The notes below the pieces were generated by a model, which made no database searches, was not told the origin of the DNA, and saw only the letters and a program-made list of their open reading frames with translations. Made by a program: the position numbers and the translations under genes. DNA of 64,000 nt from Actinomycetes bacterium (GTDB lineage Bacteria; Actinomycetota; Actinomycetes; DATJPE01). Below, in pieces: positions 21,535 to 34,418 of this stretch. The stretch lies in NCBI GenBank assembly GCA_035506535.1, contig DATJPE010000063.1, positions 63,966-127,965 on the forward strand. The letters run 5' to 3'. The stretch's first letter is position 1. Each line of letters begins with the position of its first letter.

Positions 21535-21565
21535 CGCGGAGCGTGAGACCCGGGTACGCACTACC

Positions 21566-22231: not shown

Positions 22232-23148
22232 GCCTCGGCCAGCCCGCCTGGCCGACCGAGACCGCGCTCGTGGTGTCTGCCCCCGGACCAGGGCCCGGCC
22301 ACTGGGCGGGGGCCCCGAGCGCCGTCGTCGACGGCGACCTCACCTACCTCGCCTACCGGCTCCGCAGGCCAGTCGAGGAGGGACGCGGCCACGGCAACGT
22401 GCTGGCCCGCTCCACCGACGGCGTCACCTTCGAGACCGTGGGCGTGCTCGCCAAGGAGACCTTCGGCGCCGAGTCGCTCGAGCGTCCCGCGCTGGTGCGC
22501 GCCGAGGACGGTCGGTGGCGGCTGTACGTCTCCTGTGCGACGCCGGGCACGAAGCACTGGCGCGTCGACCTGCTCGAGGCGGACACGATCGAGGGCCTCG
22601 CCACGGCCGTGCCGCGTACGACGCTGACCGGCGACGCGACGTACGGCGTCAAGGACCCGGTGCTGCTGCGCCACCGCGGCGTCTGGCACCTCTGGGCCTC
22701 GTGCCACCCGCTGGAGGACCCCGACGCGACGGACCGGATGACCACCGAGCACGCGACCAGCGAGGACGGGATGGGGTGGACCTGGCACGGCACGGCGCTG
22801 GCCGGCCGGCCCGGGCGCTGGGACGCCCGCGGGGTGCGGATCAGCTCGGTCTGGTTCGACGGGACGACCCCGATGGCCCTCTACGACGGCCGCGCGAGCG
22901 CCGCGGAGAACTGGGAGGAGCGGACCGGCCTCGCCGTCGGAGCCGACGTCGGCCTCGGCCGCTTCGAGGCTGTCGGCGAGGCGCCGGTGGCCGAGTCGAG
23001 CTACGCCGGGAACGGCCTTCGGTACGTCAGCGTGGTCGAGGTCGGCGGCGTCCACCGGGCGTACTACGAGGTGGCCAGGCCTGACGGCGCGCACGAGCTC
23101 CGGATGGCGGTGCTGCCCCGATTCCACGTCCCGGTCGCTCCCGGCTGA
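22228..23148 (+). CDS. BNR/Asp-box repeat protein (sialidase/glycoside-hydrolase-like beta-propeller)
   Basis: The GTG at 22228 overlaps the channel's stop (GTGA). Asp-box motifs are RSTDGVTFE and TSEDGMGWTW (SxDxGxTW). It is the tail of ORF 21706..23148. Confidence 0.5.
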   Translation: MSLGQPAWPTETALVVSAPGPGPGHWAGAPSAVVDGDLTYLAYRLRRPVEEGRGHGNVLARSTDGVTFETVGVLAKETFGAESLERPALVRAEDGRWRLYVSCATPGTKHWRVDLLEADTIEGLATAVPRTTLTGDATYGVKDPVLLRHRGVWHLWASCHPLEDPDATDRMTTEHATSEDGMGWTWHGTALAGRPGRWDARGVRISSVWFDGTTPMALYDGRASAAENWEERTGLAVGADVGLGRFEAVGEAPVAESSYAGNGLRYVSVVEVGGVHRAYYEVARPDGAHELRMAVLPRFHVPVAPG

Positions 23149-23284
23149 GCCGCGCGGGGGTACGGCTCACCCACCGTGCATCGGAAACAACCGACCGTTG
23201 GCGAATTCTCGATCAACTGACTAGCGGGTCAGTCCCACGTACGGCACGATCCGAGTGCGCACCCCCGCCACCAGGAGCCAGCCC

Positions 23285-24505
23285 ATGAGCAGAAGCCGCC
23301 TCTCCCGCCGGATCTGGATCGCCTCGATCGCCGTAGCCGCGCTCGGCGCAGGCACCGTCCTCTCGGTCGCCACCAGCGCACCGGCCGCGACCGTGCCCCA
23401 GGTCACCATCGGCACCAGCGTCAACGGCATCGCCGGCGACCCGATGTACACCGGCCTCAACGAGGCCGTGGGTCTCACCGTCACCAACAACTCGACGACC
23501 AAGGCCAAGCTCGGCCTGTTCACCATCGTCATCCCGGCCGGCTATCCGACAGTCACGCCGGGCAGTGTTTCCCCCAGTACGTGGGGCGAGACGTACACGA
23601 CGAAGTGCGGCCTGGTGAAGAACTGCTCGGCGCTCATCTTCGTGGCGCCGAAGGTGCCGCTCGCCTCCGCGCTGATCCCGGTCGGCGGCTCGGTGACCGC
23701 TACCTTCTCCTTCACCGCCCCGAGCAGCGCGCAGACGCTGAGCTTCCCGGTCATCGGCATCGGCCTCGGCAACGGCGTCTTCACCGGCTCCGGCAACGTG
23801 GTCGTCCAGGCCATCGCCGCAGGCCAGGCGGAGATCCTCACGCCGGGTTCCCCGCCGAAGGTGCCGCTGAGCGTCACCGTGCCGTCCGGTACCAACCTGC
23901 CTGTGACGAATGCTGCTGCGGGCCTCCCCAACGGCGCTGTCGGCGGGACCGTCCTGACCGTGGCCCCCTGCACCGACCCTGCGTGCGCTCAGTCCGCACC
24001 CTCCCCCAGCGGCGACGACGAGATCACCCCGGCGTCGACGTCGTCGACGGAGATCACCCTCTCGGGCATCTTCACCGACCCCAAGCTCGGTGAGCTCTAC
24101 ACCGACACGGCTCCAGGCTCGGTGAGCTGGACCTGCCCGAACTCCAAGTGCCCGCACGCTGACTCGGTCGAGTCCGAGGGTGGCACCAACTACCTGTACA
24201 ACTTCGGCGCGACCGGCGACGAGGAGGAGCAGTACGAGGACTACCTCGCCTACCCCGTGTATGTGGGGATCCGCGATCCGCAGACCCAGTCCTACGTGTT
24301 TTCTCCCAACCCCGCGCCCGCATGCCGCGACAACGATGACTCGGAGCAAGCCGGGCAGACCGGCCAGATCGTCAGCACGGCAGCCGTCGCCGCCGGGTAC
24401 TGCGTCGACGTGTACGCGATGAGCCGCACGGATAACTCATTCACCGGTGACCTGACGATGACGCTGTTGTTCGTCGAGGACCCGAAGCTGCGGACCACGC
24501 CGTAG
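23285..24505 (+). CDS. Secreted hypothetical protein (signal peptide, Thr/Ser/Gly-rich, multiple Cys pairs)
   Basis: MSRSRLSRRIWIASIAVAALGAGTVLSVATSAPAA is a signal peptide. The protein contains 8 Cys, and no known catalytic motif was recognised. Confidence 0.5.
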   Translation: MSRSRLSRRIWIASIAVAALGAGTVLSVATSAPAATVPQVTIGTSVNGIAGDPMYTGLNEAVGLTVTNNSTTKAKLGLFTIVIPAGYPTVTPGSVSPSTWGETYTTKCGLVKNCSALIFVAPKVPLASALIPVGGSVTATFSFTAPSSAQTLSFPVIGIGLGNGVFTGSGNVVVQAIAAGQAEILTPGSPPKVPLSVTVPSGTNLPVTNAAAGLPNGAVGGTVLTVAPCTDPACAQSAPSPSGDDEITPASTSSTEITLSGIFTDPKLGELYTDTAPGSVSWTCPNSKCPHADSVESEGGTNYLYNFGATGDEEEQYEDYLAYPVYVGIRDPQTQSYVFSPNPAPACRDNDDSEQAGQTGQIVSTAAVAAGYCVDVYAMSRTDNSFTGDLTMTLLFVEDPKLRTTP

Positions 24506-24512
24506 TAGAAGG

Positions 24513-27500
24513 TCAGATCTCGAGCGGCCCTGGTCGCCTCGGGTACCGCCGGCTCCCGGCGAACCCGAGGCGGTCCAGGGCCTGTTCGCTCTCGGCGTCC
24601 CAACGCCGGGCCGACTCCTCGTCACCCCGCATCCGCGCCACCCGCGCCAACTCGGCGAGGATGAACCCGCACTCGACCCGGCCCTGGGCGTCCGCCGTCT
24701 CCAGCGCTCGATGCAGCGTCTCCTCGGCGATGTCGACGTCGCCGAGGTCCACCTCGGCCGCGCCCTGCAACCGGAGCAGCCACGGCAGCAGGTAACCGGC
24801 GTCCAGCGCGGTCGCACGTACGGCTGCGTCGTCGGCGAGGTCCCGCGCCTCCTGGGCCCGCCCCTCGCCGAGCAGGCCGAGGGCGATCGCGGCGTCGGTC
24901 TCCGCTACCTCGGACGGCTCGCCGAACTCGATGAACATCGCGCGCGCTCCTTCCAGTTCGGCTTGGCCCTCGTCGTGCTGCCCCTCGAGGACCAGCGCGA
25001 GCCCGAGCGCGCGGTGGGCGACAGCGATGAAGTCGCCGACACCGGCTCCCTGCAGGGTGGGGATGAGCCGGCGCAGGATGTCCTCCGCCTCGCGGGTACG
25101 GCCGAGCCGGACGAGGACGTCACCCACGTTGCACCCGGTCTGGGCCGCACCGACCGTGTCGCCGGACTCCTCGGCGAGGCGCTGGGCGCGCTCGAACATC
25201 TCCAGCGCCTCCTGGCCGCGCCCCTGGATCCACGCCAGGACGGCGAGGTTGTTGAGCGCGCGCGATTGCCCGGCGCGAAAGCCGAGGTGCTCGTAGAGCT
25301 CCAGCGCCTGCTGCCCGTACGGCCGGTCCGGCTCGCCCCCGAGCATGGACGTCACGCCGTGCAGCGCCTCCAGCGCATCCGCCAGAGCAGCGGTGTCGCC
25401 GGAGGCCTCGGCGTCGCGTTCGGCCAGACGAGCCCACTGGAGGGCGTCCCGGTAGCGGCCCTGGTTCTCCCGGACGACCGCGTACACGCCCTCGAGCCGG
25501 CTGCGCGCGGCCAGGCTCTGGGCGTCGCCGTGCCCGTCGAGCAGCCGCAGGCCCCGTGTCACGCTTCGCAGTGCAACCGGCTGGCGGCCAAGGCGGTTCT
25601 GGATCGCCGCCTCCTCCTTGAGCACGAGGGCGGCTCGGGCCGGGTAGCCCTTGAGCCGCGCGCGTGCCCCCTTCAGCGCGACGAGCGCGGCCTCGTTGCG
25701 CCCCAACCGGTTCCGCGCCTCACCGAGGGAGAGGTAGGCCGACGCCACCTGTTCGTCGGGGACGTCGCGGAGCCCGCGCACCGAGGCGACCGCGCGCTCG
25801 AGGTGCTCCTCGGCCTCGACGTAGGCGTACTTCTCCGCCGCGCGCTCCCCGGCGAGCCGCGCGTAGTACCACGCCTTGTCGTGACGGGCCGCGTGGAAGT
25901 AGTGCAGCGACAGCAGCTCGGCCACGTCGTCCGGGTCCGACGTCCGCGCCTCGATCACCTCTCCCGCCCGCCCGTGCAGCTCGCGCCGCAGGCGGAACGG
26001 CAGTCCCTCGTACGCCGTGTCGCGCAGCAGCTGGTGGTCGAAGTGGAATCGCCCGTGCCCCTCGGCCTGGATGAAGAACGACATCCGCCGCAGCGCCGCC
26101 CGGCTCGTCGGCAGCGGGTGCCCCTGGAGCAGCGCCCGCAGCGTCGCCTCGTCGAAACGCATGCCGAGCACCGAGGCGAAACGCAGCACGGTGCGCTCGT
26201 CCGGGGGCAGGCGGTCGATCTGGCTGGTGATGAGCGCCTCGACGGTGCTCGGCAGCGCGTCGAGCGAGGCGCCTTCACGGGCCGCCAGGGCGAGGCCGCG
26301 CAGGAACAGGGGGTTGCCGTTGGCTCGGGCCGCCAGCGCGGCGACGTCGTGCGGGGCTAGCGCGGTGTCGGCGAGCGCGGCCATGACCAGCGAGCTCGCG
26401 GCTGCGGCGTCGAGCGGCGCCGGTCGGACCTCGACGACCGGGTAGCGCGGCGACGGGCGGAACCCCTCCCCGACGTCGCGGCGGGTGACCACCACGAGCC
26501 AGGGCCGACCCGCCAGGCCGAGGCACAGCTGCTCGAGCAGGTCCACGGACGCCTCGTCCATGAGGTGGACGTCGTCGAAGACCAGCACGGCCTGACCGGG
26601 CTGAACCGCCGTCGCGAGGCGTACCACCACCTCCTCGGTCCGTGACCGGCGGAACCGCTCGTCGAGCGCGTCCACCTCGGGCGTGCTCGGCAGGTCCACG
26701 TCGAGCACCTGTCCCACCAGCGGCAGCCAGGGCAGCAGCGAGGGGTCGGCACGCGTAGCGCTCTCGACCAGCGCGGCGACCAGCGTCTCCTCGTCGGCCT
26801 CCTCGGAGACGTCGAGCAGCTCGCCGAGCAGCGCCCGGAACGGCCAGTACGGCGTCGCCGTCTGGAACTCGTCGCACCGCGTGGTGAGCACCCGCGCAGG
26901 GGTGTCCCGCAGCATCTCCTCGACCAGACGCGACTTGCCGATGCCCGGCTCCCCCACGAGGTCCACGAGCTGGCCGCTGCCCGCCGCTGCCTTCTCCGCC
27001 GCCTCGCGCAGGACGCCCAGCTCGGCCTCGCGACCGATGAACGGCGAGTCCTCCCTGCCCCGACGCTCGCTGAGCAGGCGCCCGAGGCTGAACGCGTGCA
27101 CCGGCTCGGACTTGCCCTTGACCAGGAACGGCGGCATCGCCTCGGCGTCGAAGCGTGCCGCCGAGGCCTCGACCACCGCGGCCGTGGCGAGGACCTGCCC
27201 GGGCTCGGCCTTGCCCATCACCCGGGCCGCCAGGTTGATGGCGTCGCCCTTGACCGAGAACGTCTTGCGGAACGACGGGCCGAAGTCACCGGCGAAGACG
27301 GGTCCGCAGTTAACGCCGATCCGGATGGGGAGCTGCCCGACCAGGTCGACGACGTGCCGGGCCGCGCGCAGCATCCGCTCCTCGTCGTTGCCGAGGCTGA
27401 CCGGGGCCCCTGCAGTGAGCATGATCTTGCCGCCGTCACGGTTGATGTCGGACTCGAAGAAGGTCACCCCGTGCCGCTCGGTGGCGTCCTGCACGTTGCG

Positions 27501-28340
27501 CACGCACTCGTCGAGCGCCTCGGCGAGGGCCTGCGGCCCACGTTCGGCGAGGACCGCGTCGGTTCCGGAGAACTGCACGAAGGCCACCGCGATCCGCCGG
27601 TGCTCGGGCTCGCCGGACGCGCTGAGCAGGTGGGCGCGGATGTTCGGAGGGATGAGCGTGGCGAGGTCCAGACCCGCCGTCGACGGCCGCGGGACGACCT
27701 CGCTGTCCTCGACCACGGGGTCGGCCGCGAGGAGGAAGCCCCCGCCCTTGGCGTCCCCCACGCTCGACGCCTCGAGCAGGGCGGCGGTCTCGGGGGACAC
27801 GACGACCTCGCCCGCCTCGGCGATCGCCTCCATCTCGGCCGTACGGCTCGCGGCCGGCCCGCTGACGATGAGCTCGCGGTGCACGGCGGGGTCGCCGACG
27901 AGGAAGAAGTGGAACGCTCCGCTGTGAATGCCCACGGACATGCGGAGCTCGACGCGTCCCGAGCCGGTGCTGAGCTGGCCGATCCGGCGCAGCCGGGCCC
28001 GCATCCGCGAGCTGGCCAGCGCCGCCCGAGCGGCGTGGTCGGGGCCCTCGAACAGCAGGAGCACGGCGTCGCCGCCCCACTTCACCAGGCCGGCGCCCGT
28101 CGGGTAGGCAACCGAGAGCAGGTCGGCGAAGGTGGCGTTGAGAATGTCGCTCATCTCCTCCGCGCCGACCTTGCCCTTGCGGGCGAGTCGCTCGGTCAGC
28201 GCGGTGAAGCCGGAGATGTCGACGAACGCGAGCGAGCCGTCGACCTCGCGCCAGAGGGCATCGGGGGTGTCGCGCAGCCAGGTCAGGGCGAGCCGGGGGA
28301 CGTACGGCTCCAGCAGGGCCACGTCCGCGCGCTCCGCCAT
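24513..28340 (-). CDS. Multidomain STAND-type signalling protein with two class III adenylate/guanylate cyclase domains, an AAA+/NB-ARC-like ATPase and TPR repeats. It has no C-terminal HTH.
   Basis: 1275 aa. The first cyclase domain is FVDISGFTALTERL...WGGDAVLLLF and the second is IAVAFVQFSGTDAV...GDAINLAARV. The P-loop is GEPGIGKSRLVEE. About 500 aa of TPR-like repeats follow. Unlike the mycobacterial Rv0386-type proteins it lacks a LuxR HTH. Confidence 0.8.
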   Translation of the reverse strand: MAERADVALLEPYVPRLALTWLRDTPDALWREVDGSLAFVDISGFTALTERLARKGKVGAEEMSDILNATFADLLSVAYPTGAGLVKWGGDAVLLLFEGPDHAARAALASSRMRARLRRIGQLSTGSGRVELRMSVGIHSGAFHFFLVGDPAVHRELIVSGPAASRTAEMEAIAEAGEVVVSPETAALLEASSVGDAKGGGFLLAADPVVEDSEVVPRPSTAGLDLATLIPPNIRAHLLSASGEPEHRRIAVAFVQFSGTDAVLAERGPQALAEALDECVRNVQDATERHGVTFFESDINRDGGKIMLTAGAPVSLGNDEERMLRAARHVVDLVGQLPIRIGVNCGPVFAGDFGPSFRKTFSVKGDAINLAARVMGKAEPGQVLATAAVVEASAARFDAEAMPPFLVKGKSEPVHAFSLGRLLSERRGREDSPFIGREAELGVLREAAEKAAAGSGQLVDLVGEPGIGKSRLVEEMLRDTPARVLTTRCDEFQTATPYWPFRALLGELLDVSEEADEETLVAALVESATRADPSLLPWLPLVGQVLDVDLPSTPEVDALDERFRRSRTEEVVVRLATAVQPGQAVLVFDDVHLMDEASVDLLEQLCLGLAGRPWLVVVTRRDVGEGFRPSPRYPVVEVRPAPLDAAAASSLVMAALADTALAPHDVAALAARANGNPLFLRGLALAAREGASLDALPSTVEALITSQIDRLPPDERTVLRFASVLGMRFDEATLRALLQGHPLPTSRAALRRMSFFIQAEGHGRFHFDHQLLRDTAYEGLPFRLRRELHGRAGEVIEARTSDPDDVAELLSLHYFHAARHDKAWYYARLAGERAAEKYAYVEAEEHLERAVASVRGLRDVPDEQVASAYLSLGEARNRLGRNEAALVALKGARARLKGYPARAALVLKEEAAIQNRLGRQPVALRSVTRGLRLLDGHGDAQSLAARSRLEGVYAVVRENQGRYRDALQWARLAERDAEASGDTAALADALEALHGVTSMLGGEPDRPYGQQALELYEHLGFRAGQSRALNNLAVLAWIQGRGQEALEMFERAQRLAEESGDTVGAAQTGCNVGDVLVRLGRTREAEDILRRLIPTLQGAGVGDFIAVAHRALGLALVLEGQHDEGQAELEGARAMFIEFGEPSEVAETDAAIALGLLGEGRAQEARDLADDAAVRATALDAGYLLPWLLRLQGAAEVDLGDVDIAEETLHRALETADAQGRVECGFILAELARVARMRGDEESARRWDAESEQALDRLGFAGSRRYPRRPGPLEI

Positions 28341-28379
28341 CGCCTCCCCACATCCTCTGGCCGGCCCCGTGCCCGGAGT

Positions 28380-30038
28380 CTATGAGCCTGACGGGGGCTC
28401 CTGCCTGAGCGCCGAGGCGAGGTCTCGGGCCCGGTGGGCGTCAGCGACCTCGCTGGCGAGCGCGTGGCCGTCCGCACTGCCGGTCACAGCCGCCAAGAAG
28501 TCGGCACCGCTCAGCACGAGCAGCCGGGCCGGGGACCGCGCCGTCACGGTGGCCGTGCGGGGCACCGACCGCAGCAGGGCCACCTCCCCGAAGGCGTGGC
28601 CCGGTGCCAGCGTCTGTGGCCGGGCGACCCCGTCGACCGTGACCGTGAACAGGCCGTCCGCGATGACGTAGAAGTCCTGCGCGTCCTCGCCCTGCACCAC
28701 GACGTCGGTGCCGGCCGTGACCTCCGTCCACCGCGCGTTCCGGGCCAGGCGCTCCAGCTCGAACTCGGGGAGCACGGCGAGGAAGCCGACGGTCCGCAGG
28801 AGGCGGATCTCGTAGGGAAGGTAGACAGCGCGGTCGTCCAGGCGCCGGATGAACCATGCGCTCCCCAGGGCGAGGGCCACGGCGCCCGCTCCCAGCGGCA
28901 CGAAGGTCTGGGCGGGATCGAGCCAGCCGAGCAGCAGCGACACGGAGGCGGCGCCGACCGCCAGCCCGACCAGCGACATCCCCTCCTGCACGGCGAAGAC
29001 CCGCGCCAGCACGGCGTCGTCGATCGCGCGTTGCAGCAACGTCCGACCGCAGACCATGAGCATCGCCTCCGCGGCCCCGACGAGGGCGATCACGACCATG
29101 GCAGCACCGAGGCCGGACACGACCGACACGACGGCGAACCCGGCACCTTCGGCCACGCCCAGGAGGACGATCGCCGGTCCGAGCCGGCGCCGCCGAGCGA
29201 TGAGCGCCGCAGCGGCTGCACCCACCAGGCCGCCGATGCCGATGGCCCCCACGACCAGGCCCGCGCCGGACTGGCCGTGGTGCAGGGTGTCGACCGAGAA
29301 CGCGACGCCGAGCACGTCCAGCGCCCCGGCGAGGAAGAACGTCGTGGTCAGCAGGACGAGCAGGGTCAGGGCGGGCCAGTCCCCGCGCAGCGAACGCAGC
29401 CCCTGGAAGGCAGCCCGCCACCCGTCGGCCTCCTCGTCGGCCGCGGCCCGACCGAGGTGCAGCCCGCTGGAGAGCAGGGTGGCGACGGCCGCCGCGATAG
29501 CCGCGCCGGCGAACACCAGCCACGGGCCGGCGTACGCGGCACCGAAGCCGGCGAGCACGGGGCCGAGGAAGGCGGCGACGCCGTCGAGCACCGAGGACAG
29601 CGAGTTCGCGGAGACGAGGTGGTCGCTGGTCCGCGACAGCTGGGGCAGGGCGGCGAAGTGGATCGGCCGCACGACGGCCACGGCGACCGTGGCCGTCGTC
29701 GACGCGGCCACGACCAGGGGCAGGGGCGCGGAGGCCAGGATGGCGATCAGGGTGAGGGTGACGGTCGCGGTCACCCCGGCGTAGGCGAGCGCGAGCGCGC
29801 GCCCTCTCGGCAGCCGGTCGCCGATCGCGGCGAGGGCCGGGGCGAGCATCGAGGCAGGGACCAGCTGGATGACGGTGACGACGCCCGCCGTGCGGGCCCC
29901 GTCGGCCGCGAAGACGTACAGGATGACCGCGAGCCAGATCGAGAACTCGACCAGCCCATAGAGGCCATAGGCCACCAGCACCCTGCGCAGCCCCGTCCGC
30001 GCCTGCAACGCCCGCAGGGTCACGGGAAGAGCACGCAT
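28380..30038 (-). CDS. MFS transporter fused to a C-terminal cyclic nucleotide-binding (CAP-effector) domain
   Basis: About 552 aa from ATG near 30038 (MRALPVTLRALQARTGLRRVLVAYGLYGL...). It has 12 predicted TM helices. The C-terminal cNMP-binding signature is FGEVALLRSVPRTATVTARSPARLLVL. Confidence 0.7.
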   Translation of the reverse strand: MRALPVTLRALQARTGLRRVLVAYGLYGLVEFSIWLAVILYVFAADGARTAGVVTVIQLVPASMLAPALAAIGDRLPRGRALALAYAGVTATVTLTLIAILASAPLPLVVAASTTATVAVAVVRPIHFAALPQLSRTSDHLVSANSLSSVLDGVAAFLGPVLAGFGAAYAGPWLVFAGAAIAAAVATLLSSGLHLGRAAADEEADGWRAAFQGLRSLRGDWPALTLLVLLTTTFFLAGALDVLGVAFSVDTLHHGQSGAGLVVGAIGIGGLVGAAAAALIARRRRLGPAIVLLGVAEGAGFAVVSVVSGLGAAMVVIALVGAAEAMLMVCGRTLLQRAIDDAVLARVFAVQEGMSLVGLAVGAASVSLLLGWLDPAQTFVPLGAGAVALALGSAWFIRRLDDRAVYLPYEIRLLRTVGFLAVLPEFELERLARNARWTEVTAGTDVVVQGEDAQDFYVIADGLFTVTVDGVARPQTLAPGHAFGEVALLRSVPRTATVTARSPARLLVLSGADFLAAVTGSADGHALASEVADAHRARDLASALRQEPPSGS

Positions 30039-30180
30039 CCGGCCGTCCCCGTCTGCTCGCCTCTTGTTTGCTGCGAGGATAGGAGGTCTGGCCACAGGAG
30101 CGCAGCGGGAACGCCGCGTCGGCGCACCAAAGGGCTGATACGTTCGAAGCACGCGTGGTGCGCCGGCGAAGGAGGGTGCG

Positions 30181-30597
30181 GTGACGCCGTACGAGATGCT
30201 CGCGCAGGTGGACCTGTTCAAGACCCTGCCGAGCGACGTCATCTACGAGATGGTCGAACGCAGCTCGACGCACCGGACCGCGCCGGGAGCGGTGCTGGTC
30301 GAGCAGGGCAGCCCCGACTCGGGCCTGCGTCTGATCATCGAGGGGACCGCGACCGTCTCGGTCAACGGGGTGGAGCGAGGCGAGATGAAGACCGGCGACT
30401 ACTTCGGCGAGATCTCCCTCATCGACTCACAGCCGCGTTCGGCGACGGTCATCGCCGGCCCGGAGGGCGTACGGACGCTCGCCATGTCGCCGCTGACCTT
30501 CTCGCAGCTGCTCGACGCTCACCCGCAGATCGCCCGCAAGCTGTTGCCGGTGCTCACGGCGCGGATCCGTCGCATCGAGGCGGCCCAGCACGACTAG
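30181..30597 (+). CDS. Stand-alone cyclic nucleotide-binding domain protein
   Basis: 138 aa. The signature is GDYFGEISLIDSQPRSATVIA (the FGE...RSA phosphate-binding cassette). There is no output domain. Confidence 0.7.
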   Translation: MTPYEMLAQVDLFKTLPSDVIYEMVERSSTHRTAPGAVLVEQGSPDSGLRLIIEGTATVSVNGVERGEMKTGDYFGEISLIDSQPRSATVIAGPEGVRTLAMSPLTFSQLLDAHPQIARKLLPVLTARIRRIEAAQHD

Positions 30598-30608
30598 GTG
30601 GTGGTGAC

Positions 30609-31439
30609 GTGCGGCTGACGCTGCTGGGGGTGCGTGGCTCCACGCCCGCGCCCGGGCGAGACTTCGTGCGCTACGGCGGGCACACCTCGTGCATCGCGGT
30701 GACGCGTGACGACGAGGACCTGCCGGATCTGGTGCTCGACGCCGGCACCGGCTTCCGCGGACTTCCCGGGCTGCTCGGCGGAGCCGCGTACGACGGCTCG
30801 ATCCTGCTCAGCCACCTGCACTGGGACCACGTCCAGGGGATCCCGTTCTGCCCCTCCGGGGACCGCGACGACTCCCGGGTCGATGTGTTCCTGCCCGCGC
30901 AGGAGGGCCTGAGCGGGCGCGACCTGTTGGCCCAGCTGATGGCACCCCCGGCGTTCCCGATCACCCCGGAGGGCCTGCGCGGTGACTGGTCCTTCCACGC
31001 GGTGCAGCCGGGAATGTTCGAGACCGACGGATACGTCGTCACCGCCTGCGAGGTGACGCACAAGGGCGGTCGCACGTACGCCTACCGCGTCGAGGCGGAC
31101 GGTGCCTCCCTCGCCTACGCCCCGGACCACGCCCCCGCGCTCGGCCTCGACGATGCCACCCTGCGCACCATGGAGGGCGTCGACCTGCTCGTTCAGGACG
31201 CGCAGTTCATCGACCGCGAACGGCTGATCGCCGACGACTACGGGCACGCGACCGTCCGGGACGCCGTCGAGCTCGCCCAGCGCGTCCATGCGCGTGCCGT
31301 CCTGCTCTTCCACCACGGGCCGGGGCGCAAGGATGACGACCTCGACCGCATCGCCGACGACATCGCCGCGGACGTCACGGTCCTCACCGCCTACGAGGGC
31401 ATGGTCCTCGACGTGACGAGCCGGACCATGAGCCGGTGA
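30609..31439 (+). CDS. MBL-fold metallo-hydrolase (candidate class II-like cNMP phosphodiesterase or nuclease)
   Basis: GTG 30609 follows AGGTGGTGA. The SHLHWDHVQG motif matches HxHxDH. It is the last 277 codons of the artefactual 1001-aa ORF 28434..31439. Its stop overlaps the next gene's start. Confidence 0.7.
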   Translation: MRLTLLGVRGSTPAPGRDFVRYGGHTSCIAVTRDDEDLPDLVLDAGTGFRGLPGLLGGAAYDGSILLSHLHWDHVQGIPFCPSGDRDDSRVDVFLPAQEGLSGRDLLAQLMAPPAFPITPEGLRGDWSFHAVQPGMFETDGYVVTACEVTHKGGRTYAYRVEADGASLAYAPDHAPALGLDDATLRTMEGVDLLVQDAQFIDRERLIADDYGHATVRDAVELAQRVHARAVLLFHHGPGRKDDDLDRIADDIAADVTVLTAYEGMVLDVTSRTMSR

Positions 31440-31918
31440 GCGAGCTCCTCGCGCTGTGCGCCGACCTGCCCGTCGAGGCTGTTCCGCCCGGACAGACCCT
31501 CATCGTCGAGGGTGACGCCCCGGGCCCGATGTACGTGCTGCGCACCGGCAGCGTCAGCGTCGAACGCGACGGCGTACCGGTGGCCCGCATCCACGCCTCC
31601 GGTGCGGTCCTCGGCGAGATGTCCGTCGTCCTGGAGCGACCCGCCACCGCGACGGTACGCGCGGAGCAGGAGGTGACGGTCCACGTCGTCGAGGACCCTC
31701 ACGACTTCCTCAGCGCCAACCCTGGCGCCGCGCTGGCGGTGCTGCGCACGACGGCGGCGCGGCTCGACGGGATGACGCAGTACCTCGTGGACGTCAAGCA
31801 GCAGTACGCCGGTCTGGGCGGCCACCTGGCGATGGTCGACCAGATCCTGGACGCCCTGGTCCACCACCAGCCGTCGACCGCGCGGACCGGGTCCGTCCGT
31901 GACCCCGAGGTGGGCTGA
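31436..31918 (+). CDS. Stand-alone cyclic nucleotide-binding domain protein (second copy)
   Basis: 160 aa. The signature GEMSVVLERPATATVRAEQEVTV is a cNMP-binding cassette. There is an ATGA overlap with the MBL hydrolase gene. Confidence 0.7.
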   Translation: MSELLALCADLPVEAVPPGQTLIVEGDAPGPMYVLRTGSVSVERDGVPVARIHASGAVLGEMSVVLERPATATVRAEQEVTVHVVEDPHDFLSANPGAALAVLRTTAARLDGMTQYLVDVKQQYAGLGGHLAMVDQILDALVHHQPSTARTGSVRDPEVG

Positions 31919-31967
31919 GGGTCCGCCGGCGAGGCCGGCCGACGCGGAGCCCTGCGATCCGGAAGCC

Positions 31968-32687
31968 TCAGGCCAGGTCCACCGTCTGCCGGTCGAAGAC
32001 GCCGTACCACTCCGCGGTGCCCCGCTCGGTGTCGAGGGTGATGTGCGGGGGCACCGGGCCGACCTGGCGCCCGGCGTTGAACACCCACGTCGAGCCGATC
32101 CGGGCATGCCACGAGCCGCCCTCGACCCACGGCGCCTGGTGGATGTGCCCGCACAGCACCGCGAACGGCTGGTAACGCTCGATCCAGGACGTGAGGTCGT
32201 GGTCGGGGAACTCGCGCCGGCCGTCGCTGCACAGCACCGTGCCGGCGGGCGGGGCGTGGTAGAGCCACACCCACGTGTCCGGCCGGTCCACCGCGGCCGC
32301 TTGCAGCAGGGCGTCGACCTCGGCCCTGGCCGTCGGCCCGTCCCACCAGGGGCAGACCGTGAAGCGCACGCCGTCGATGTCGACCGAGGCGCCGTCCGCG
32401 TGCAGGCCGGGCGCGCTGAGCAGGCGCAGCCAGCCGGCGACCTGCTCGCCGTCGCGACCCGGCCCGTCGAGGTCGTGGTTGCCGGACGCGGCGAGGACGG
32501 TGGCTCGCTCGGCCAGCTGTCCGAGATAGCGCTCGAGGACGACGACCTGGACCTCGTGCGGCACCGGGCTCACCACGTCGGCGAGGTCGCCGGGCAACGC
32601 GACCACGTCGACGTCCGCGGCGGCCTGGACGAGCCAGTCGTAGTGCGGCAGCCGGTAGTGCAGGTCCGAGGCCACGAGGACGCGCAC
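31968..32687 (-). CDS. Calcineurin-like metallophosphoesterase, CpdA/Rv0805-like class III cyclic nucleotide phosphodiesterase candidate
   Basis: 239 aa from GTG 32687. The motifs D-x-H (ASDLHY), GD (LPGDL), GNHD (ASGNHDLD) and GH..GHIH (CGHIHQ) match the class III PDE signature set. Confidence 0.6.
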   Translation of the reverse strand: MRVLVASDLHYRLPHYDWLVQAAADVDVVALPGDLADVVSPVPHEVQVVVLERYLGQLAERATVLAASGNHDLDGPGRDGEQVAGWLRLLSAPGLHADGASVDIDGVRFTVCPWWDGPTARAEVDALLQAAAVDRPDTWVWLYHAPPAGTVLCSDGRREFPDHDLTSWIERYQPFAVLCGHIHQAPWVEGGSWHARIGSTWVFNAGRQVGPVPPHITLDTERGTAEWYGVFDRQTVDLA

Positions 32688-32738
32688 CCGCGGATCGTCG
32701 CAGCCTCGTGTTACGCCGGTGGGAACGCGCGATCTCGG

Positions 32739-33482
32739 ATGTGGTTCCTGGATCGGCCTACCCTGGGCACCGTGACGACGTACGGGCTCGTCCACGGCGC
32801 CTACCACGGGGCATGGTGCTGGTCCGACGTCGTGACCGAGCTCGAGCGACGGGGGCACCGCGCGCTGACCGTGGACCTGCCCTCGGAGGACCCCACGGCC
32901 GCGGGCCGGGAGTACGCCGCTGCCGCGCTCGAGGCGTTCTCCTCGGCCGGCGAGGACCTCGTCCTCGTCGGCCACTCCCTGGGTGGGCTCACCATCCCCC
33001 TGGTGGCCGCCGCGCGGCCGGTCGCCCACCTGGTGTTCGTCGCCGCGATGCTGCCGCGGGTGGGGCGCAGCCTGGACGAGGTGCTGGCCGAGGAGGCCGA
33101 CATGGTCCTGCCCGGACCGCCGCACGGCGCGTACGTCGACGCGGCCGGGCTCGTCCGCTTCCACCCGGAGGTGGCGGCCGCCTGGTTCTTCGCGGACTGC
33201 TCGCCCGCGGTGGCCGCGCGTGCCGCCGCCCGGCTGCGGGGCCAGTGGTGGGGCATCAGCAACGAGGTCACCCCGCTCCAGGCCTGGCCTGACGTGCCGA
33301 TGACCTACGTCCTCGGGGTGGCCGACCCGGTCATCAACCCCGCCTGGTCGCGACGGGTCGTCCCGGCGGTGCTCGGCGGGCGACCGGTCGAGCTCCCCGG
33401 CGGGCACTCGCCGTTCCTGGCCCGGCCGGGCGAGCTGGTCGACGCCCTCCTCCTGGCGTGCGAGGGCTCCTCCGACGGCTGA
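32739..33482 (+). CDS. Alpha/beta hydrolase fold protein
   Basis: It has the nucleophile elbow GHSLGG. It is the tail of ORF 31899..33482, which is otherwise antisense to the phosphoesterase. Confidence 0.65.
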   Translation: MWFLDRPTLGTVTTYGLVHGAYHGAWCWSDVVTELERRGHRALTVDLPSEDPTAAGREYAAAALEAFSSAGEDLVLVGHSLGGLTIPLVAAARPVAHLVFVAAMLPRVGRSLDEVLAEEADMVLPGPPHGAYVDAAGLVRFHPEVAAAWFFADCSPAVAARAAARLRGQWWGISNEVTPLQAWPDVPMTYVLGVADPVINPAWSRRVVPAVLGGRPVELPGGHSPFLARPGELVDALLLACEGSSDG

Positions 33483-33492
33483 CACTGGAGGG

Positions 33493-34404
33493 GTGCCCGC
33501 CCTCCTCGACGTCGCCCGCGTCCTCCCGGTGAACCCGGTGGCGCGAACGTTCCGCCGGATCGTCTCCGGCGACCCGCAGGGGCGACCCGAGTGGATCCGG
33601 GCGCTCGAGGACGGAACGGACGCCGGCCTCTTCGGCCCCGGGTCCGCGCCGTGGGCGGTGCACGGCAGCACGACGACGCTCATCGGAGGCGTACGTGCGC
33701 TGCTCCTCCAGGCCCTGCACCCGGCAGCGCTGGCCGGGGTCCGGGACCACTCGCGCTATCGCGACGATGCCCTGGGCCGCCTGGCCGGCACGTCGCGGTG
33801 GCTGGTGACGCTCACCTTCGGCGACTCCCGGGCGGTGGAACGCGAGTCGGCACGCGTGCGCGGGATGCACACCAGGGTCCGGGGGCTGATGCTGGACCCT
33901 CAGGGCGACCTGCGACCGTACGCCGCGAGCGACCCGCACCTGCTGCGCTGGGTGCACCTGGCCTTCACCGACTCCTTCCTGGTGGCCCACGAGGTGTGGG
34001 GCGCCGCGATCCCCGGAGGCCCCGACGCCTACGTCGGTGAGTGGGGGCGGGCGGCTGAGCTGCTCGGCCTCGACGACCCGCCGCGATCGGTCGTCGAGCT
34101 GCGCGATCAGCTGCACGGCTACGACGACGAGCTCGACGGCGGGACTGACGCCCGGGAGGTCGCGCGCTTCATCCTCAACCCTCCCCTGCCGCTGGCGGCC
34201 CGGCCTGCCTACGCCGTCCTCGCGAGCGCCGCGGTGTCCACACTGGAGCCGCGGCACCGCGAGCTGCTCGAGCTGACCGCGCTCCCGCTGACGCTCACCC
34301 GCCCGATGGCCGGCGCCCTGCTCAGGGGGCTGGGCGTGGCGCTGGGATCGACCTCGCCCAGCGAGCGCGCCGCGCGGCAGCGGCTGGACCGGGTCCTCGC
34401 CTGA
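33493..34404 (+). CDS. DUF2236 / MpaB-family oxygenase-like protein
   Basis: 303 aa. The conserved HP...R.H motifs and length are typical of the ER-bound oxygenase mpaB/DUF2236 family. The assignment rests on pattern recognition only. Confidence 0.5.
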   Translation: MPALLDVARVLPVNPVARTFRRIVSGDPQGRPEWIRALEDGTDAGLFGPGSAPWAVHGSTTTLIGGVRALLLQALHPAALAGVRDHSRYRDDALGRLAGTSRWLVTLTFGDSRAVERESARVRGMHTRVRGLMLDPQGDLRPYAASDPHLLRWVHLAFTDSFLVAHEVWGAAIPGGPDAYVGEWGRAAELLGLDDPPRSVVELRDQLHGYDDELDGGTDAREVARFILNPPLPLAARPAYAVLASAAVSTLEPRHRELLELTALPLTLTRPMAGALLRGLGVALGSTSPSERAARQRLDRVLA

Positions 34405-34418
34405 GCGAGGATGGTGCG

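What the first reader, a model, noticed from the sequence alone, without database searches (positions are those of the whole stretch)
24513..32687. Cyclic-nucleotide signalling island with synthesis, sensing and degradation modules
Within 8 kb lie a 1275-aa protein with two class III nucleotidyl cyclase domains fused to an AAA+/NB-ARC-like ATPase and TPR repeats, an MFS transporter carrying a C-terminal cNMP-binding domain, two stand-alone cNMP-binding proteins bracketing an MBL-fold hydrolase, and a CpdA/Rv0805-type metallophosphoesterase. The cNMP-binding/MBL/cNMP-binding triad is translationally coupled. The density of cNMP parts suggests a dedicated second-messenger circuit controlling transport. 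The architecture is cyclase plus cNMP-binding effectors plus a hydrolase. The cyclase domains sit on a STAND NTPase scaffold, and STAND NTPases are frequent in antiviral sensors. This superficially echoes Pycsar-type cNMP defence systems.
Basis: partly seen in the sequence, partly recalled or inferred. Interest (0 to 1): 0.7.

Follow-up and report, generated by a model that had tools for sequence, protein, structure and literature searches.

The report
Actinobacterial cyclic-nucleotide signalling gene cluster
This is a real cluster of genes for making, sensing and probably destroying a cyclic-nucleotide messenger in an uncultured actinobacterium; it looks like ordinary cell signalling rather than phage defence, but it points to an unstudied family of messenger-linked degrading enzymes.

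Summary
All six genes and their domains are present at the stated coordinates. The window's only cNMP-binding and cyclase domains found by my locally built HMMs lie in these 8 kb.

- **Cyclase:** the 1275-aa protein has the layout of soluble adenylyl cyclase (C1-C2-STAND-TPR). Complementary losses of catalytic residues leave one composite active site, so it is not dead.
- **MBL protein:** it carries the [T/S]HxHxDH signature of "atypical class II" cNMP phosphodiesterases and folds like YhfI, RNase Z and PhnP.
- **Neighbourhood:** in 80 genomes across Actinomycetota, 63 have a cNMP-binding or cyclase gene within 3 kb of this MBL gene. 26 have a cNMP-binding gene directly upstream on the same strand. 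Relatives exist as MBL fusions to cNMP-binding or GAF domains.
- **What is conserved:** the stable units are pairs, namely cNMP-binder→MBL and metallophosphoesterase/CNB2. The triad is not conserved.
- **CNB2:** it consistently lacks the phosphate-binding arginine.
- **"CpdA/Rv0805-type":** not established.
- **Pycsar resemblance:** limited to shared domains. There are essentially no phage homologues, no mobile-element signs, and the linkage spans the phylum.

Verdict: a housekeeping cNMP (probably cAMP) circuit. It likely includes a split, bacterial counterpart of the Dictyostelium cNMP-activated MBL phosphodiesterases. Moderately interesting.

The parts
24513..28340 (-). CYC: 1275-aa soluble-adenylyl-cyclase-like protein, with tandem class III cyclase domains (C1-like, C2-like), an AAA_16 STAND ATPase and TPR repeats
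   Evidence: Pfam, gene call on the ENA contig, translation.
27756..28244 (-). C1-like cyclase domain (aa ~33-195). It keeps both metal-binding Asp (D41, D91) and K87. The transition-state Asn and Arg are lost (S165, E169).
   Evidence: The best PDB sequence hit is the C1 domain of human ADCY10, E=5e-12; FVDISGFT and K-x-x-G-D align residue for residue. The pattern holds in 10 orthologues.
27066..27593 (-). C2-like cyclase domain (aa ~250-425). Both metal Asp are lost (Q256, G304). The transition-state N369 and R373 are kept. The base-specifying positions are N300 and S362.
   Evidence: Alignment to mycobacterial Cya/Rv1625c-type chains. Orthologue alignment.
24561..27044 (-). STAND ATPase (AAA_16; Walker A GEPGIGKS at aa 463, Walker B VLVFDD at aa 585) followed by TPR repeats
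   Evidence: Pfam AAA_16 at aa 433-612 and TPR_12. NCBIfam partial matches to the TOMM kinase/cyclase fusion and AfsR. Motif positions.
28380..30038 (-). MFS-cNMP: 552-aa EntS/DHA3-like MFS transporter with a C-terminal cNMP-binding domain. The cassette FGEVALLRSVPRTATV (aa 483-498) is canonical. A 39-nt gap separates it from CYC on the same strand, so the two are probably one operon.
   Evidence: Pfam, NCBIfam, gene call, cassette alignment, position.
30039..30180 (.). Divergent intergenic region between MFS-cNMP and CNB1. It contains a 13-nt inverted repeat (30117-30129 / 30156-30168).
   Evidence: No CRP-like site was found here. No sigma-70 consensus match.
30181..30597 (+). CNB1: 138-aa stand-alone cNMP-binding protein with a canonical cassette (G76-E77 ... 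R86-S87-A88)
   Evidence: Pfam. PDB hits to PKG, PKA-R and MlotiK1 cNMP-binding domains with the cassette aligned.
30609..31439 (+). MBL: 276-aa Lactamase_B_2 hydrolase, a putative cNMP phosphodiesterase. It has S68-H-L-H-W-D-H74, and conserved His/Asp at H151, D173, H174, H213, H235 and H236.
   Evidence: Pfam. Invariant columns. AF2 model pLDDT 85.6. Foldseek top hits are RNase Z, YhfI and PhnP. Signature motif as defined in PMC9293780.
31436..31918 (+). CNB2: 160-aa cNMP-binding-fold protein with a non-canonical cassette (G60-E61 ... P69-A70-T71-A72, Arg replaced by Ala) and a conserved C-terminal extension. Its start overlaps the MBL stop (GTGA).
   Evidence: Pfam, overlap, orthologue alignment, PDB alignment.
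31912..31952 (.). 19-nt imperfect hairpin between the convergent CNB2 and MPE genes, possibly a bidirectional terminator
   Evidence: It has no T-tract, so the consensus terminator scan does not call it.
31968..32687 (-). MPE: 239-aa calcineurin-like metallophosphoesterase with D8-x-H10, G33-D34, G69-N-H-D72, H144 and G180-H-I-H183. It is the conserved partner of CNB2.
   Evidence: Pfam. Invariant columns. AF2 model pLDDT 88.4. Foldseek. The MPE/CNB2 pair is seen.

Best explanation
This is a chromosomal housekeeping cluster for a cyclic-mononucleotide messenger, most likely cAMP. It is built from three sub-modules that recur, in rearranged order, across Actinomycetota.

1. **MFS-cNMP → CYC operon.** CYC is a bacterial soluble-adenylyl-cyclase-type enzyme. 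Its two cyclase domains form one pseudo-heterodimer with a single active site: the metal-binding Asp come from the C1-like domain, and the transition-state Asn and Arg from the C2-like domain. The STAND ATPase and TPR part presumably gates activity in response to an unknown ligand or partner (inferred).
2. **CNB1 → MBL.** The MBL enzyme is an 'atypical class II' type phosphodiesterase that hydrolyses the cNMP. The stand-alone cNMP-binding protein encoded just upstream senses the messenger and modulates the enzyme (inferred). This would give substrate-dependent feedback, as in Dictyostelium GbpA/GbpB, where the same two kinds of domain sit in one polypeptide.
3. **CNB2 / MPE.** A metallophosphoesterase is paired with a cNMP-binding-fold protein whose phosphate-binding arginine is replaced. 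This may be a second hydrolase/regulator pair, perhaps for another ligand (speculative).

The MFS transporter is gated through its own canonical cNMP-binding domain and belongs to an efflux-type family. Export of the messenger itself, or of some other solute under cNMP control, is possible (speculative).

Shown: domain content, intact catalytic and binding motifs, and recurrent gene linkage. Inferred: enzyme substrates, the CNB-MBL interaction, and the direction of regulation.
For: **Domains:**

**Cyclase:**
- Domain 1 best matches the C1 domain of human ADCY10 (E=5e-12). D41, K87 and D91 align to the conserved FVDISGFT and K-x-x-G-D motifs.
- Domain 2 aligns to Rv1625c-type cyclases with the Asn and Arg conserved and both Asp lost.
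- The same complementary pattern appears in all 10 orthologues examined.
- Walker A and B motifs are intact.

**MBL:**
- SHLHWDH fits the [T/S]HxHxDH signature that PMC9293780 uses to define atypical class II PDEs such as Rv1339, YhfI and C. glutamicum CpdA.
- The AF2 model (pLDDT 85.6) matches RNase Z, YhfI and PhnP at E~1e-13. YhfI prefers cAMP/cGMP (PMC9117128).
- In the RNase Z alignment, query residues 164-188 stand against chain residues 152-222. That is where I recall the tRNA-binding flexible arm lying, so the arm appears to be missing.

**Linkage of the MBL gene in 80 genome loci:**
- 63 of 80 have a cNMP-binding or cyclase domain within 3 kb.
- 26 of 80 have a cNMP-binding gene directly upstream on the same strand. 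In Nonomuraea it overlaps the MBL start by 4 nt and lies next to a divergent REC-cyclase gene.
- cNMP-binding domain density is 0.268 per kb within 1 kb, against 0.025-0.045 per kb at 3-10 kb.
- 21 of 80 have a STAND cyclase within 7 kb, and 20 of 80 have an MFS within 3 kb.
- In cultured Miltoncostaea oceani, MBL overlaps a downstream MFS-cNMP gene.

**Fusions:** family members occur as MBL+cNMP_binding+HTH_Crp, MBL+REC+cNMP_binding+GGDEF, MBL+GAF (three cases) and REC+MBL.

**Cassettes:** the upstream cNMP-binding proteins keep G-E ... R-[ST]-[AS].

**MPE/CNB2 pair:** present in 4 of 4 independently anchored contigs and in the 9 genome loci with an MPE hit.
Against: - No biochemical activity is known for this MBL family. 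It scores only 39.6 bits against the NCBIfam 'cyclic nucleotide-degrading phosphodiesterase' model, whose cutoff is 400.
- Its fold is as close to RNase Z and PhnP as to YhfI, so another phosphodiester substrate is possible.
- The base-specifying positions of the cyclase are N300 and S362, and they vary among orthologues. They match neither the Lys/Asp(Thr) pair of adenylyl cyclases nor the Glu/Cys pair of guanylyl cyclases, so the product is not predictable.
- 17 of 80 MBL loci show no cNMP gene within 3 kb.
- The 80 loci are the best-scoring of 516 relatives, and many are related MAGs, so the counts are not phylogenetically independent.
- The HMMs were trained on these same sequences.
- A physical CNB-MBL interaction was not tested.
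- The MBL fusions come from metagenomic gene calls and could include mis-joined genes.
Confidence: 0.68

Rival explanations
1. A Pycsar-like antiphage system. On infection the cyclase makes a cyclic (pyrimidine) nucleotide, which activates cNMP-binding effectors (the membrane protein, the MBL nuclease) to abort the infection.
For: - PADLOC PycC and PycTIR profiles give weak hits (33-72 bits).
- The cyclase sits next to a membrane protein carrying a cNMP-binding domain, on the same strand.
- STAND NTPases are common in immune sensors (general knowledge).
- The cyclase base-specifying residues are non-canonical.
- MPE hits a PADLOC candidate family, PDC-S10, at E=2.6e-10.
Against: - The PADLOC hits cover only the generic cyclase or cNMP-binding portion of the profiles (for example positions 28-140 of the 288-position PycTIR model). 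No TIR or short-TM effector part is matched.
- The membrane protein is a full 12-TM EntS/DHA3-type MFS transporter.
- The linkage is found across Actinomycetes, Acidimicrobiia, Thermoleophilia and Nitriliruptoria, with the genes at 45-75% identity. That is the pattern of vertical inheritance, not of patchy defence islands.
- There is no GC anomaly.
- The flanking genes I scanned are metabolic, with no mobile-element family among them.
- The MBL family is essentially absent from 50,697 phage records.
Confidence: 0.05
2. Coincidental co-location. Actinomycetes carry many cyclase and cNMP-binding genes, and these six merely happen to be neighbours without forming a circuit.
For: - Gene order and orientation differ between genomes.
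- The exact triad and the MFS→CYC operon are seen only in this contig, and the MFS→CYC operon also in L014.
- Two of four MPE/CNB2-anchored contigs have no MBL or cyclase within 8 kb.
Against: - Enrichment depends on distance: cNMP-binding domains are 6-10 times denser within 1 kb of MBL than at 3-10 kb, and cyclase domains 4-12 times denser.
- The same gene families re-associate in different orders in many lineages.
- Gene overlaps indicate operons.
- Domain fusions of MBL with cNMP-binding and GAF domains exist.
- My local HMMs find no other cNMP-binding or cyclase domain in the remaining 56 kb of the window.
Confidence: 0.12
3. The MBL protein is not a cNMP phosphodiesterase. It is a cNMP-controlled effector hydrolase, such as an RNase Z-like nuclease or a PhnP-like cyclic phosphate diesterase, switched by the neighbouring cNMP-binding protein.
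For: - The best fold and sequence matches are RNase Z.
- Among all NCBIfam models, RNase Z scores highest at 53.9 bits.
- JGI annotates family members as PhnP or RNase BN.
Against: - The region where I recall the RNase Z flexible arm lying is absent from the alignment.
- All NCBIfam scores are far below cutoffs.
- No phn genes were seen in the loci whose neighbouring genes I examined.
- The [T/S]HxHxDH signature and the YhfI-like fold fit cNMP PDEs.
- Fusion to GAF or cNMP-binding domains is the hallmark of regulated cNMP PDEs: Dictyostelium GbpA/B (PMC11988041), and mammalian PDE2/5/6 from general knowledge.
Confidence: 0.15

Closest known systems
Soluble adenylyl cyclase (mammalian ADCY10/sAC; Dictyostelium sGC; bacterial sAC-like cyclases such as that of Chloroflexus)
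   Same: - Tandem C1-C2 class III domains at the N-terminus.
- C1 is the best PDB match, with the metal Asp and the Lys equivalent to sAC K95 aligned.
- One composite active site arises from complementary degeneracy.
- A long C-terminal P-loop NTPase plus TPR region follows the catalytic domains. That full-length sAC has this layout is my own knowledge. Bacterial sAC relatives are mentioned in PMC11006738.
   Different: - The C2 base-contacting positions are Asn and Ser rather than Lys and Thr.
- The residue aligned to the sAC bicarbonate-site Arg176 is Ala, with an Arg two positions earlier, so bicarbonate regulation is uncertain.
- The product has not been tested.
Dictyostelium GbpA/GbpB (class IIb MBL-type cNMP phosphodiesterases activated through two cNMP-binding domains)
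   Same: An MBL-fold catalytic unit is combined with cNMP-binding domains. Here one cNMP-binding gene lies on each side of the MBL gene in the same transcription unit. Activation by the substrate is the proposed logic (PMC11988041).
   Different: Here the parts are separate polypeptides, although bacterial relatives fused to cNMP-binding or GAF domains exist. CNB2 has a degenerate cassette. Homology of the catalytic domains beyond the shared MBL fold was not tested, because no GbpA sequence was available.
Atypical class II phosphodiesterases (M. tuberculosis Rv1339, B. subtilis YhfI, C. glutamicum CpdA) and phage Apyc1
   Same: - Pfam PF12706.
- The [T/S]HxHxDH motif (SHLHWDH).
- A complement of invariant His/Asp consistent with a binuclear metal site.
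- YhfI is among the top structural matches.
- Faint PF23023 (Anti-Pycsar_Apyc1) hits on family members.
   Different: - A distinct, distant family: 39.6 bits against a cutoff of 400 for the NCBIfam PDE model.
- No sequence-level PDB hit to YhfI or Apyc1 at E<=0.01.
- Genomically tied to cNMP-binding and cyclase genes. As far as I know this is not reported for Rv1339.
Class III phosphodiesterases (Rv0805, E. coli CpdA/Icc)
   Same: MPE has every metallophosphoesterase metal-binding motif (D-x-H, GD, GNHD, H, GHxH). Rv0805 is the second-best structural match. JGI names family members 'Icc-related'.
   Different: - No NCBIfam hit.
- No sequence hit to Rv0805 in the PDB at E<=1.
- TM-scores of only 0.55-0.60, no better than Mre11 or TT1561.
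- It has an obligate CNB2 partner.
MFS transporters fused to cNMP-binding domains (M. tuberculosis Rv3239c/Rv3728 type)
   Same: An MFS efflux-type core with a C-terminal cNMP-binding domain. Longer MFS+cNMP+patatin versions sit next to MPE/CNB2 in related contigs. The Rv3239c/Rv3728 architecture is from my own knowledge.
   Different: The window protein lacks the patatin/esterase extension. Its substrate is unknown.
Pycsar (PycC cyclase plus PycTIR/PycTM effector)
   Same: A class III-type cyclase domain and a cNMP-binding sensor domain encoded side by side.
   Different: There is no TIR or short-TM killing domain. The cyclase is a 1275-aa sAC-like STAND protein. The genomic distribution is that of a conserved chromosomal gene set.

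Membership tests
sAC-like (ADCY10-type) class III cyclase | Two tandem class III catalytic domains forming a pseudo-heterodimer: C1 supplies the two metal Asp, C2 supplies the transition-state Asn and Arg | tested here: met
   D41 and D91 are kept in domain 1, while the Asn/Arg positions are S165 and E169. In domain 2 the Asp positions are Q256 and G304, while N369 and R373 are kept. The pattern is conserved in 10 orthologues.
sAC-like (ADCY10-type) class III cyclase | Long C-terminal region with a P-loop NTPase and TPR repeats | tested here: met
   AAA_16 at aa 433-612, Walker A and B motifs, TPR_12.
sAC-like (ADCY10-type) class III cyclase | Bicarbonate site (Lys95/Arg176 equivalents) and a Lys/Thr base-recognition pair | tested here: inconclusive
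   K87 aligns to sAC K95, but the Arg176 column is Ala. The base-recognition positions are N300 and S362.
Atypical class II cNMP phosphodiesterase (Rv1339/YhfI/CpdA-Cg) | PF12706 MBL fold with the signature [T/S]HxHxDH | tested here: met
   Lactamase_B_2 at E=3e-20. S68-H-L-H-W-D-H74 is invariant across 26 sequences. Motif definition from PMC9293780. YhfI is a top fold hit.
Atypical class II cNMP phosphodiesterase (Rv1339/YhfI/CpdA-Cg) | Equivalog-level similarity to characterised members | tested here: not met
   NF041851 scores 39.6 bits against a cutoff of 400. There is no YhfI sequence hit in the PDB.
Atypical class II cNMP phosphodiesterase (Rv1339/YhfI/CpdA-Cg) | Hydrolysis of 3',5'-cAMP or cGMP | not testable with these tools
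   Needs an enzyme assay.
Class IIb cNMP-activated PDE (Dictyostelium GbpA/GbpB) | MBL catalytic domain and two cNMP-binding domains in one polypeptide | tested here: not met
   These are separate genes here. Related bacterial proteins fused to cNMP-binding or GAF domains exist.
Class III PDE (CpdA/Rv0805) | Metallophosphoesterase motifs D-x-H, GD, GNH[DE], H, GHxH | tested here: met
   D8, H10, G33-D34, G69-N70-H71-D72, H144 and G180-H181-I182-H183 are invariant. These motifs are generic to the whole superfamily.
Class III PDE (CpdA/Rv0805) | Specific sequence or structural similarity to CpdA/Rv0805 above other metallophosphoesterases | tested here: inconclusive
   No NCBIfam hit. No PDB sequence hit. 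Rv0805 ranks second in Foldseek, but its TM-score of 0.55-0.60 is similar to Mre11 and TT1561.
cNMP-binding domain able to bind ligand | Phosphate-binding cassette G-E-x-x-x-x ... R-[ST]-A | tested here: met
   CNB1 has FGEISLIDSQPRSAT and the MFS has FGEVALLRSVPRTAT. The upstream cNMP-binding proteins of other loci keep the Glu and Arg.
cNMP-binding domain able to bind ligand (CNB2) | The cassette arginine | tested here: not met
   CNB2 has LGEMSVVLERPATAT, with A70 at the Arg position. The same substitution is present in all eight intact orthologues; a ninth, L008, is frameshift-split.
Pycsar | Effector with a cNMP-binding domain fused to a TIR or short transmembrane killing module | tested here: not met
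   PADLOC hits are confined to the cNMP-binding part of the PycTIR profiles. The membrane protein is a full MFS transporter.
Pycsar | Pyrimidine (cCMP/cUMP) cyclase product | not testable with these tools
   The PycC HMM hits are weak and, for the best-scoring profile, partial. The base-specifying residues are non-canonical and variable.
Pycsar | Patchy, defence-island or mobile distribution | tested here: not met
   The linkage is conserved across several classes. The GC profile is flat. The neighbours I scanned are metabolic.

The most novel reading that the evidence does not exclude
The CNB→MBL pair, together with its relatives fused to cNMP-binding or GAF domains, defines a phylum-wide, uncharacterised family of cyclic-nucleotide-regulated MBL phosphodiesterases in Actinomycetota. 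It would be a split bacterial counterpart of Dictyostelium GbpA/GbpB. It is often partnered with a soluble-adenylyl-cyclase-type enzyme and a cNMP-gated efflux-type MFS transporter, so degradation and export may together clear the messenger.

A bolder variant is also not excluded. The non-canonical cyclase base-specifying residues and the arginine-less CNB2 could mean that the circuit uses a nucleotide other than cAMP or cGMP.
Probability: 0.4. Interest if true: 0.6.

Novelty: new variant of a known kind. Interest (0 to 1): 0.45.

Why it matters
- **Known gaps.** Actinobacteria, including mycobacteria, devote many genes to cAMP. Their phosphodiesterases are few and were found late (PMC9293780). 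To my knowledge, how cAMP leaves the cell is unknown.
- **A testable candidate.** An MBL hydrolase family that is encoded across the phylum next to cNMP-binding proteins, cyclases and cNMP-gated efflux-type transporters is a concrete candidate for regulated messenger clearance.
- **An evolutionary parallel.** The pairing of an sAC-type cyclase with an MBL hydrolase plus cNMP-binding proteins mirrors the Dictyostelium sGC/GbpA circuit. This raises the question of whether such eukaryotic modules have bacterial roots.
- **A caution.** Cyclase + cNMP-binder + hydrolase + STAND is not enough to call a defence system.

Tried and rejected
- **CRP-type operator** (TGTGA-N6-TCACA, up to 2 mismatches): 4 hits in the window against 10.7 expected by chance. 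None lies in an intergenic region of the cluster.
- **Rfam scan of 22000-35500:** nothing.
- **Sigma-70 promoter and intrinsic terminator consensus scans:** nothing. This is unsurprising at 72% GC.
- **afdb50 fold library:** unavailable, so the MBL model could not be compared directly with Dictyostelium GbpA.
- **PF23023 (Apyc1) on the MBL:** not reproduced by my own Pfam scan, even at E<=1. It appears only as a 'faint' precomputed hit, so I treat it as a lead only.
- **Plain tblastn neighbourhood analysis**: it missed the cNMP-binding and cyclase neighbours of distant loci. Iterated local HMMs were needed.
- **Rhizobial chromid homologue (~34% identity):** the one example inspected (Rhizobium sp. 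NLR16a) lies beside pca genes with a cyclase 3.5 kb away. This says little.
- **The 416-aa ORF at 23255-24505,** next to the cyclase: no family found.
- **The long 620-aa version of the MFS ORF:** rejected. It would overlap CNB1, it lacks a coding GC3 signal upstream of about 30040, and it is not the gene called on the ENA contig.

Full report

The window has about 72% GC with a flat composition profile, so raw ORF lists are noisy. Third-position GC analysis and the gene calls on an identical ENA metagenome contig (ERZ27256505) agree on six genes:
- CYC, 24513-28340 (-), 1275 aa
- MFS-cNMP, 28380-30038 (-), 552 aa
- CNB1, 30181-30597 (+), 138 aa
- MBL, 30609-31439 (+), 276 aa
- CNB2, 31436-31918 (+), 160 aa
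- MPE, 31968-32687 (-), 239 aa

The junctions differ slightly from the description. CNB1 ends with TAG at 30595-30597 and MBL starts 11 nt later. MBL and CNB2 overlap in GTGA. Locally built HMMs find all three cNMP-binding domains and both cyclase domains of the 64-kb window inside this 8-kb stretch. NCBI names the source 'Actinomycetes bacterium', and I could not confirm Nocardioidaceae.

**2. The cyclase**

Domain 1 (aa ~33-195) has the C1 domain of human soluble adenylyl cyclase (ADCY10) as its best PDB match, at E=5e-12. FVDISGFT and K-W-G-G-D align to the sAC metal-binding Asp residues and to Lys95. Domain 2 (aa ~250-425) aligns to Rv1625c-type cyclases.

The key positions are:
- Domain 1 keeps D41, K87 and D91, but has S165 and E169 where the transition-state Asn and Arg should be.
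- Domain 2 has Q256 and G304 in place of the two Asp, but keeps N369 and R373.

This complementary degeneracy leaves one composite active site, as in mammalian adenylyl cyclases. It is conserved in all 10 full-length orthologues I could extract. The 'catalytically dead' refuter therefore fails.

The base-specifying positions are N300 and S362, and they vary among orthologues. The nucleotide specificity cannot be read from the sequence.

Downstream lie an AAA_16 ATPase with intact Walker A and B motifs and TPR repeats. This is the AfsR/MalT-type STAND group, with partial NCBIfam matches to AfsR and the TOMM kinase/cyclase fusion. From my own knowledge, C1-C2 followed by a P-loop NTPase and TPR repeats is the full-length sAC layout. 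Bacterial relatives of sAC are mentioned in PMC11006738.

**3. The MBL protein**

- It belongs to a large family. 6136 proteins reach E<=1e-10 among the 8000 candidates scored. 1332 cluster representatives reach E<=1e-30.
- S68-H-L-H-W-D-H74 is invariant, as are H151, D173, H174, H213, H235 and H236.
- PMC9293780 defines 'atypical class II PDEs' (Rv1339, YhfI, C. glutamicum CpdA; Pfam PF12706) by [T/S]HxHxDH. The window protein fits that motif.
- An AlphaFold model (pLDDT 85.6) matches RNase Z, YhfI (6KNS/6KNT), an ELAC homologue and PhnP at E~1e-13 to 1e-11.
- YhfI prefers cAMP and cGMP (PMC9117128).
- The RNase Z sequence alignment skips chain residues 152-222 against query residues 164-188. 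That is where I recall the tRNA-binding flexible arm lying, so the arm appears to be absent.
- The protein is not an equivalog of any named enzyme: RNase Z scores 53.9 bits against a cutoff of 293, and the NCBIfam PDE model 39.6 against 400.

**4. Co-conservation**

An alignment of 26 MBL homologues retrieved 80 loci from species-representative genomes, out of 516 relatives found. They span Actinomycetes, Acidimicrobiia, Thermoleophilia and Nitriliruptoria.

Plain tblastn shows that the closer loci repeatedly carry a sAC-like CYC gene divergent from MBL, MFS-cNMP genes on one or both sides, and an MPE/CNB2 pair. Iterated local HMMs extend this to the distant loci:
- 63 of 80 loci have a cNMP-binding or cyclase domain within 3 kb of MBL.
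- 26 of 80 have a cNMP-binding gene directly upstream on the same strand.
- 43 of 80 have a cyclase within 7 kb.
- 21 of 80 have the STAND type of cyclase within 7 kb.
- 20 of 80 have an MFS within 3 kb.
- cNMP-binding domain density falls from 0.268 per kb within 1 kb to 0.025-0.045 per kb at 3-10 kb. Cyclase density falls from 0.096 to 0.008-0.025 per kb.

Two cultured examples illustrate the pattern. In Nonomuraea the arrangement is a REC-cyclase gene divergent from a cNMP-binding gene that overlaps MBL by 4 nt. In Miltoncostaea oceani a GAF protein and a small ORF precede MBL, and MBL overlaps a 559-aa MFS-cNMP gene.

The cyclase architecture changes between lineages while the cNMP-binding and MBL genes stay. 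That is what one expects if the link is the messenger rather than shared ancestry of one operon.

Caveats: the loci are not phylogenetically independent, many are Nanopore MAGs with frameshifts, and the HMMs were trained on these same sequences.

**5. Fusions**

Among the top 150 cluster representatives, longer proteins with a full-length MBL match carry the following architectures:
- MBL + cNMP_binding + HTH_Crp
- MBL + REC + cNMP_binding + GGDEF
- MBL + GAF (three proteins)
- REC + MBL

Regulated cNMP phosphodiesterases are classically built this way. Dictyostelium GbpA and GbpB are MBL-type PDEs activated through two cNMP-binding domains (PMC11988041). Mammalian PDE2, 5 and 6 use GAF domains (my own knowledge).

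**6. The sensors**

CNB1 and the MFS C-terminal domain have textbook phosphate-binding cassettes. So do the cNMP-binding proteins upstream of MBL in other genomes.

CNB2 is a separate, tightly conserved family. Its cassette reads G-E-M-S-x-V-L-x-x-x-A-T-A-T, so the arginine is replaced by alanine in the window and in all eight intact orthologues; a ninth, L008, is frameshift-split. It also has a conserved C-terminal extension.

CNB2 is consistently the neighbour of MPE, and usually convergent with it. This holds in the 9 genome loci with an MPE hit. It also holds in 4 of 4 contigs retrieved through MPE alone, two of which have no MBL or cyclase nearby.

**7. MPE**

All metallophosphoesterase metal motifs are invariant. 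There is no NCBIfam hit and no PDB sequence hit to Rv0805 or CpdA. In the fold search, Rv0805 ranks second, but at TM 0.55-0.60 it is on a par with TT1561 and Mre11. 'CpdA/Rv0805-type' remains a hypothesis.

**8. Pycsar?**

- PADLOC hits to the PycC and PycTIR models are weak, and the effector hits are limited to the cNMP-binding segment.
- There is no TIR or short-TM effector.
- The membrane protein is an EntS/DHA3-like MFS transporter.
- The MBL has one marginal hit in 50,697 phage records.
- The flanking genes I scanned include an FAD oxidase, an EAL-DICT protein, a TMEM175-like channel, alpha/beta hydrolases, MpaB, Sir2 and a BBE oxidase. One flanking ORF has no family assignment. No mobile-element or defence family was found.
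- The linkage has the look of long vertical inheritance.

I put the defence reading at about 5%.

**9. Mechanism proposed**

- **Shown:** a cyclase with one intact composite active site; three sensor domains, two of them canonical; two metal-dependent phosphoesterases with intact motifs; operon-like junctions; recurrent linkage; domain fusions.
- **Inferred:** CYC makes cAMP or a related cNMP under control of its STAND/TPR module. The messenger binds CNB1, which modulates the MBL phosphodiesterase (feedback clearance). It also binds the MFS transporter's C-terminal domain (gated efflux).
- **Speculative:** CNB2 and MPE form a second regulator/hydrolase pair whose ligand may differ.

Overall confidence is about 0.68.

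**10. Novelty and score**

Each part belongs to a known kind: an sAC-like cyclase, an MFS-cNMP transporter, a PF12706 PDE-like MBL and a metallophosphoesterase. Two things appear undescribed in what I could search:
- the phylum-wide CNB→MBL module as a split analogue of GbpA/B;
- the obligate MPE/CNB2 pair with an arginine-less cassette.

I rate the finding a new variant of a known kind, with interest 0.45.

Noticed in passing
window 20260-22231: An EAL + DICT protein (c-di-GMP phosphodiesterase-like), immediately followed by a TMEM175-family potassium-channel homologue. A second nucleotide-messenger gene thus lies about 3 kb from the cluster.
   Followed up: no
window 23255-24505 (+): A 416-aa ORF convergent with the cyclase gene. 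It has a coding-like GC3 of 0.91 but an unusually low GC1 of 0.58, and no Pfam family. The ENA contig calls a gene on this strand.
   Followed up: partly
window 30117-30168: A 13-nt inverted repeat (CGTCGGCGCACCA / TGGTGCGCCGGCG, 26 nt apart) in the divergent MFS/CNB1 intergenic region, just upstream of the CNB1 ribosome-binding site. It could be an operator or a 5'-UTR hairpin.
   Followed up: no
window 34419-35267: A Sir2-family deacylase 1.7 kb from the cluster. In mycobacteria cAMP controls protein acetylation through Pat (my own knowledge), but tblastn with the window Sir2 found no match in the other loci.
   Followed up: partly
L085 206-3349; L088 5062-8061: MFS + cNMP_binding + Patatin proteins of about 1000 aa (the Rv3239c-like architecture) encoded beside or near the MPE/CNB2 pair in related MAG contigs.
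   Followed up: no
P0279, P0360, P0324, P0373, P0374, P0368: MBL-family proteins fused to cNMP_binding+HTH_Crp, REC+cNMP_binding+GGDEF, GAF (three proteins) or REC. Their source organisms and gene-call integrity were not checked.
   Followed up: partly
L090 3948-7483 (Miltoncostaea oceani megaplasmid NZ_CP064357.1): A GAF-domain protein, an 88-aa hypothetical protein, the MBL, and an overlapping 559-aa MFS-cNMP gene lie in one same-strand run in a cultured Thermoleophilia species. This organism could be used for experiments.
   Followed up: partly
L005-L009, L034 and other MFD MAG loci: The cyclase, MFS and cNMP-binding genes are split into several frame-shifted pieces in many long-read MAGs. 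These are probably assembly errors rather than pseudogenes, and they lower the apparent counts of intact neighbours.
   Followed up: no
plasmid collection hits H3-H13: Homologues at about 34% identity lie on rhizobial chromids and megaplasmids: 244 records, mostly Rhizobium and Sinorhizobium. In the one example inspected, the gene lies beside pca genes with a cyclase gene 3.5 kb away.
   Followed up: partly
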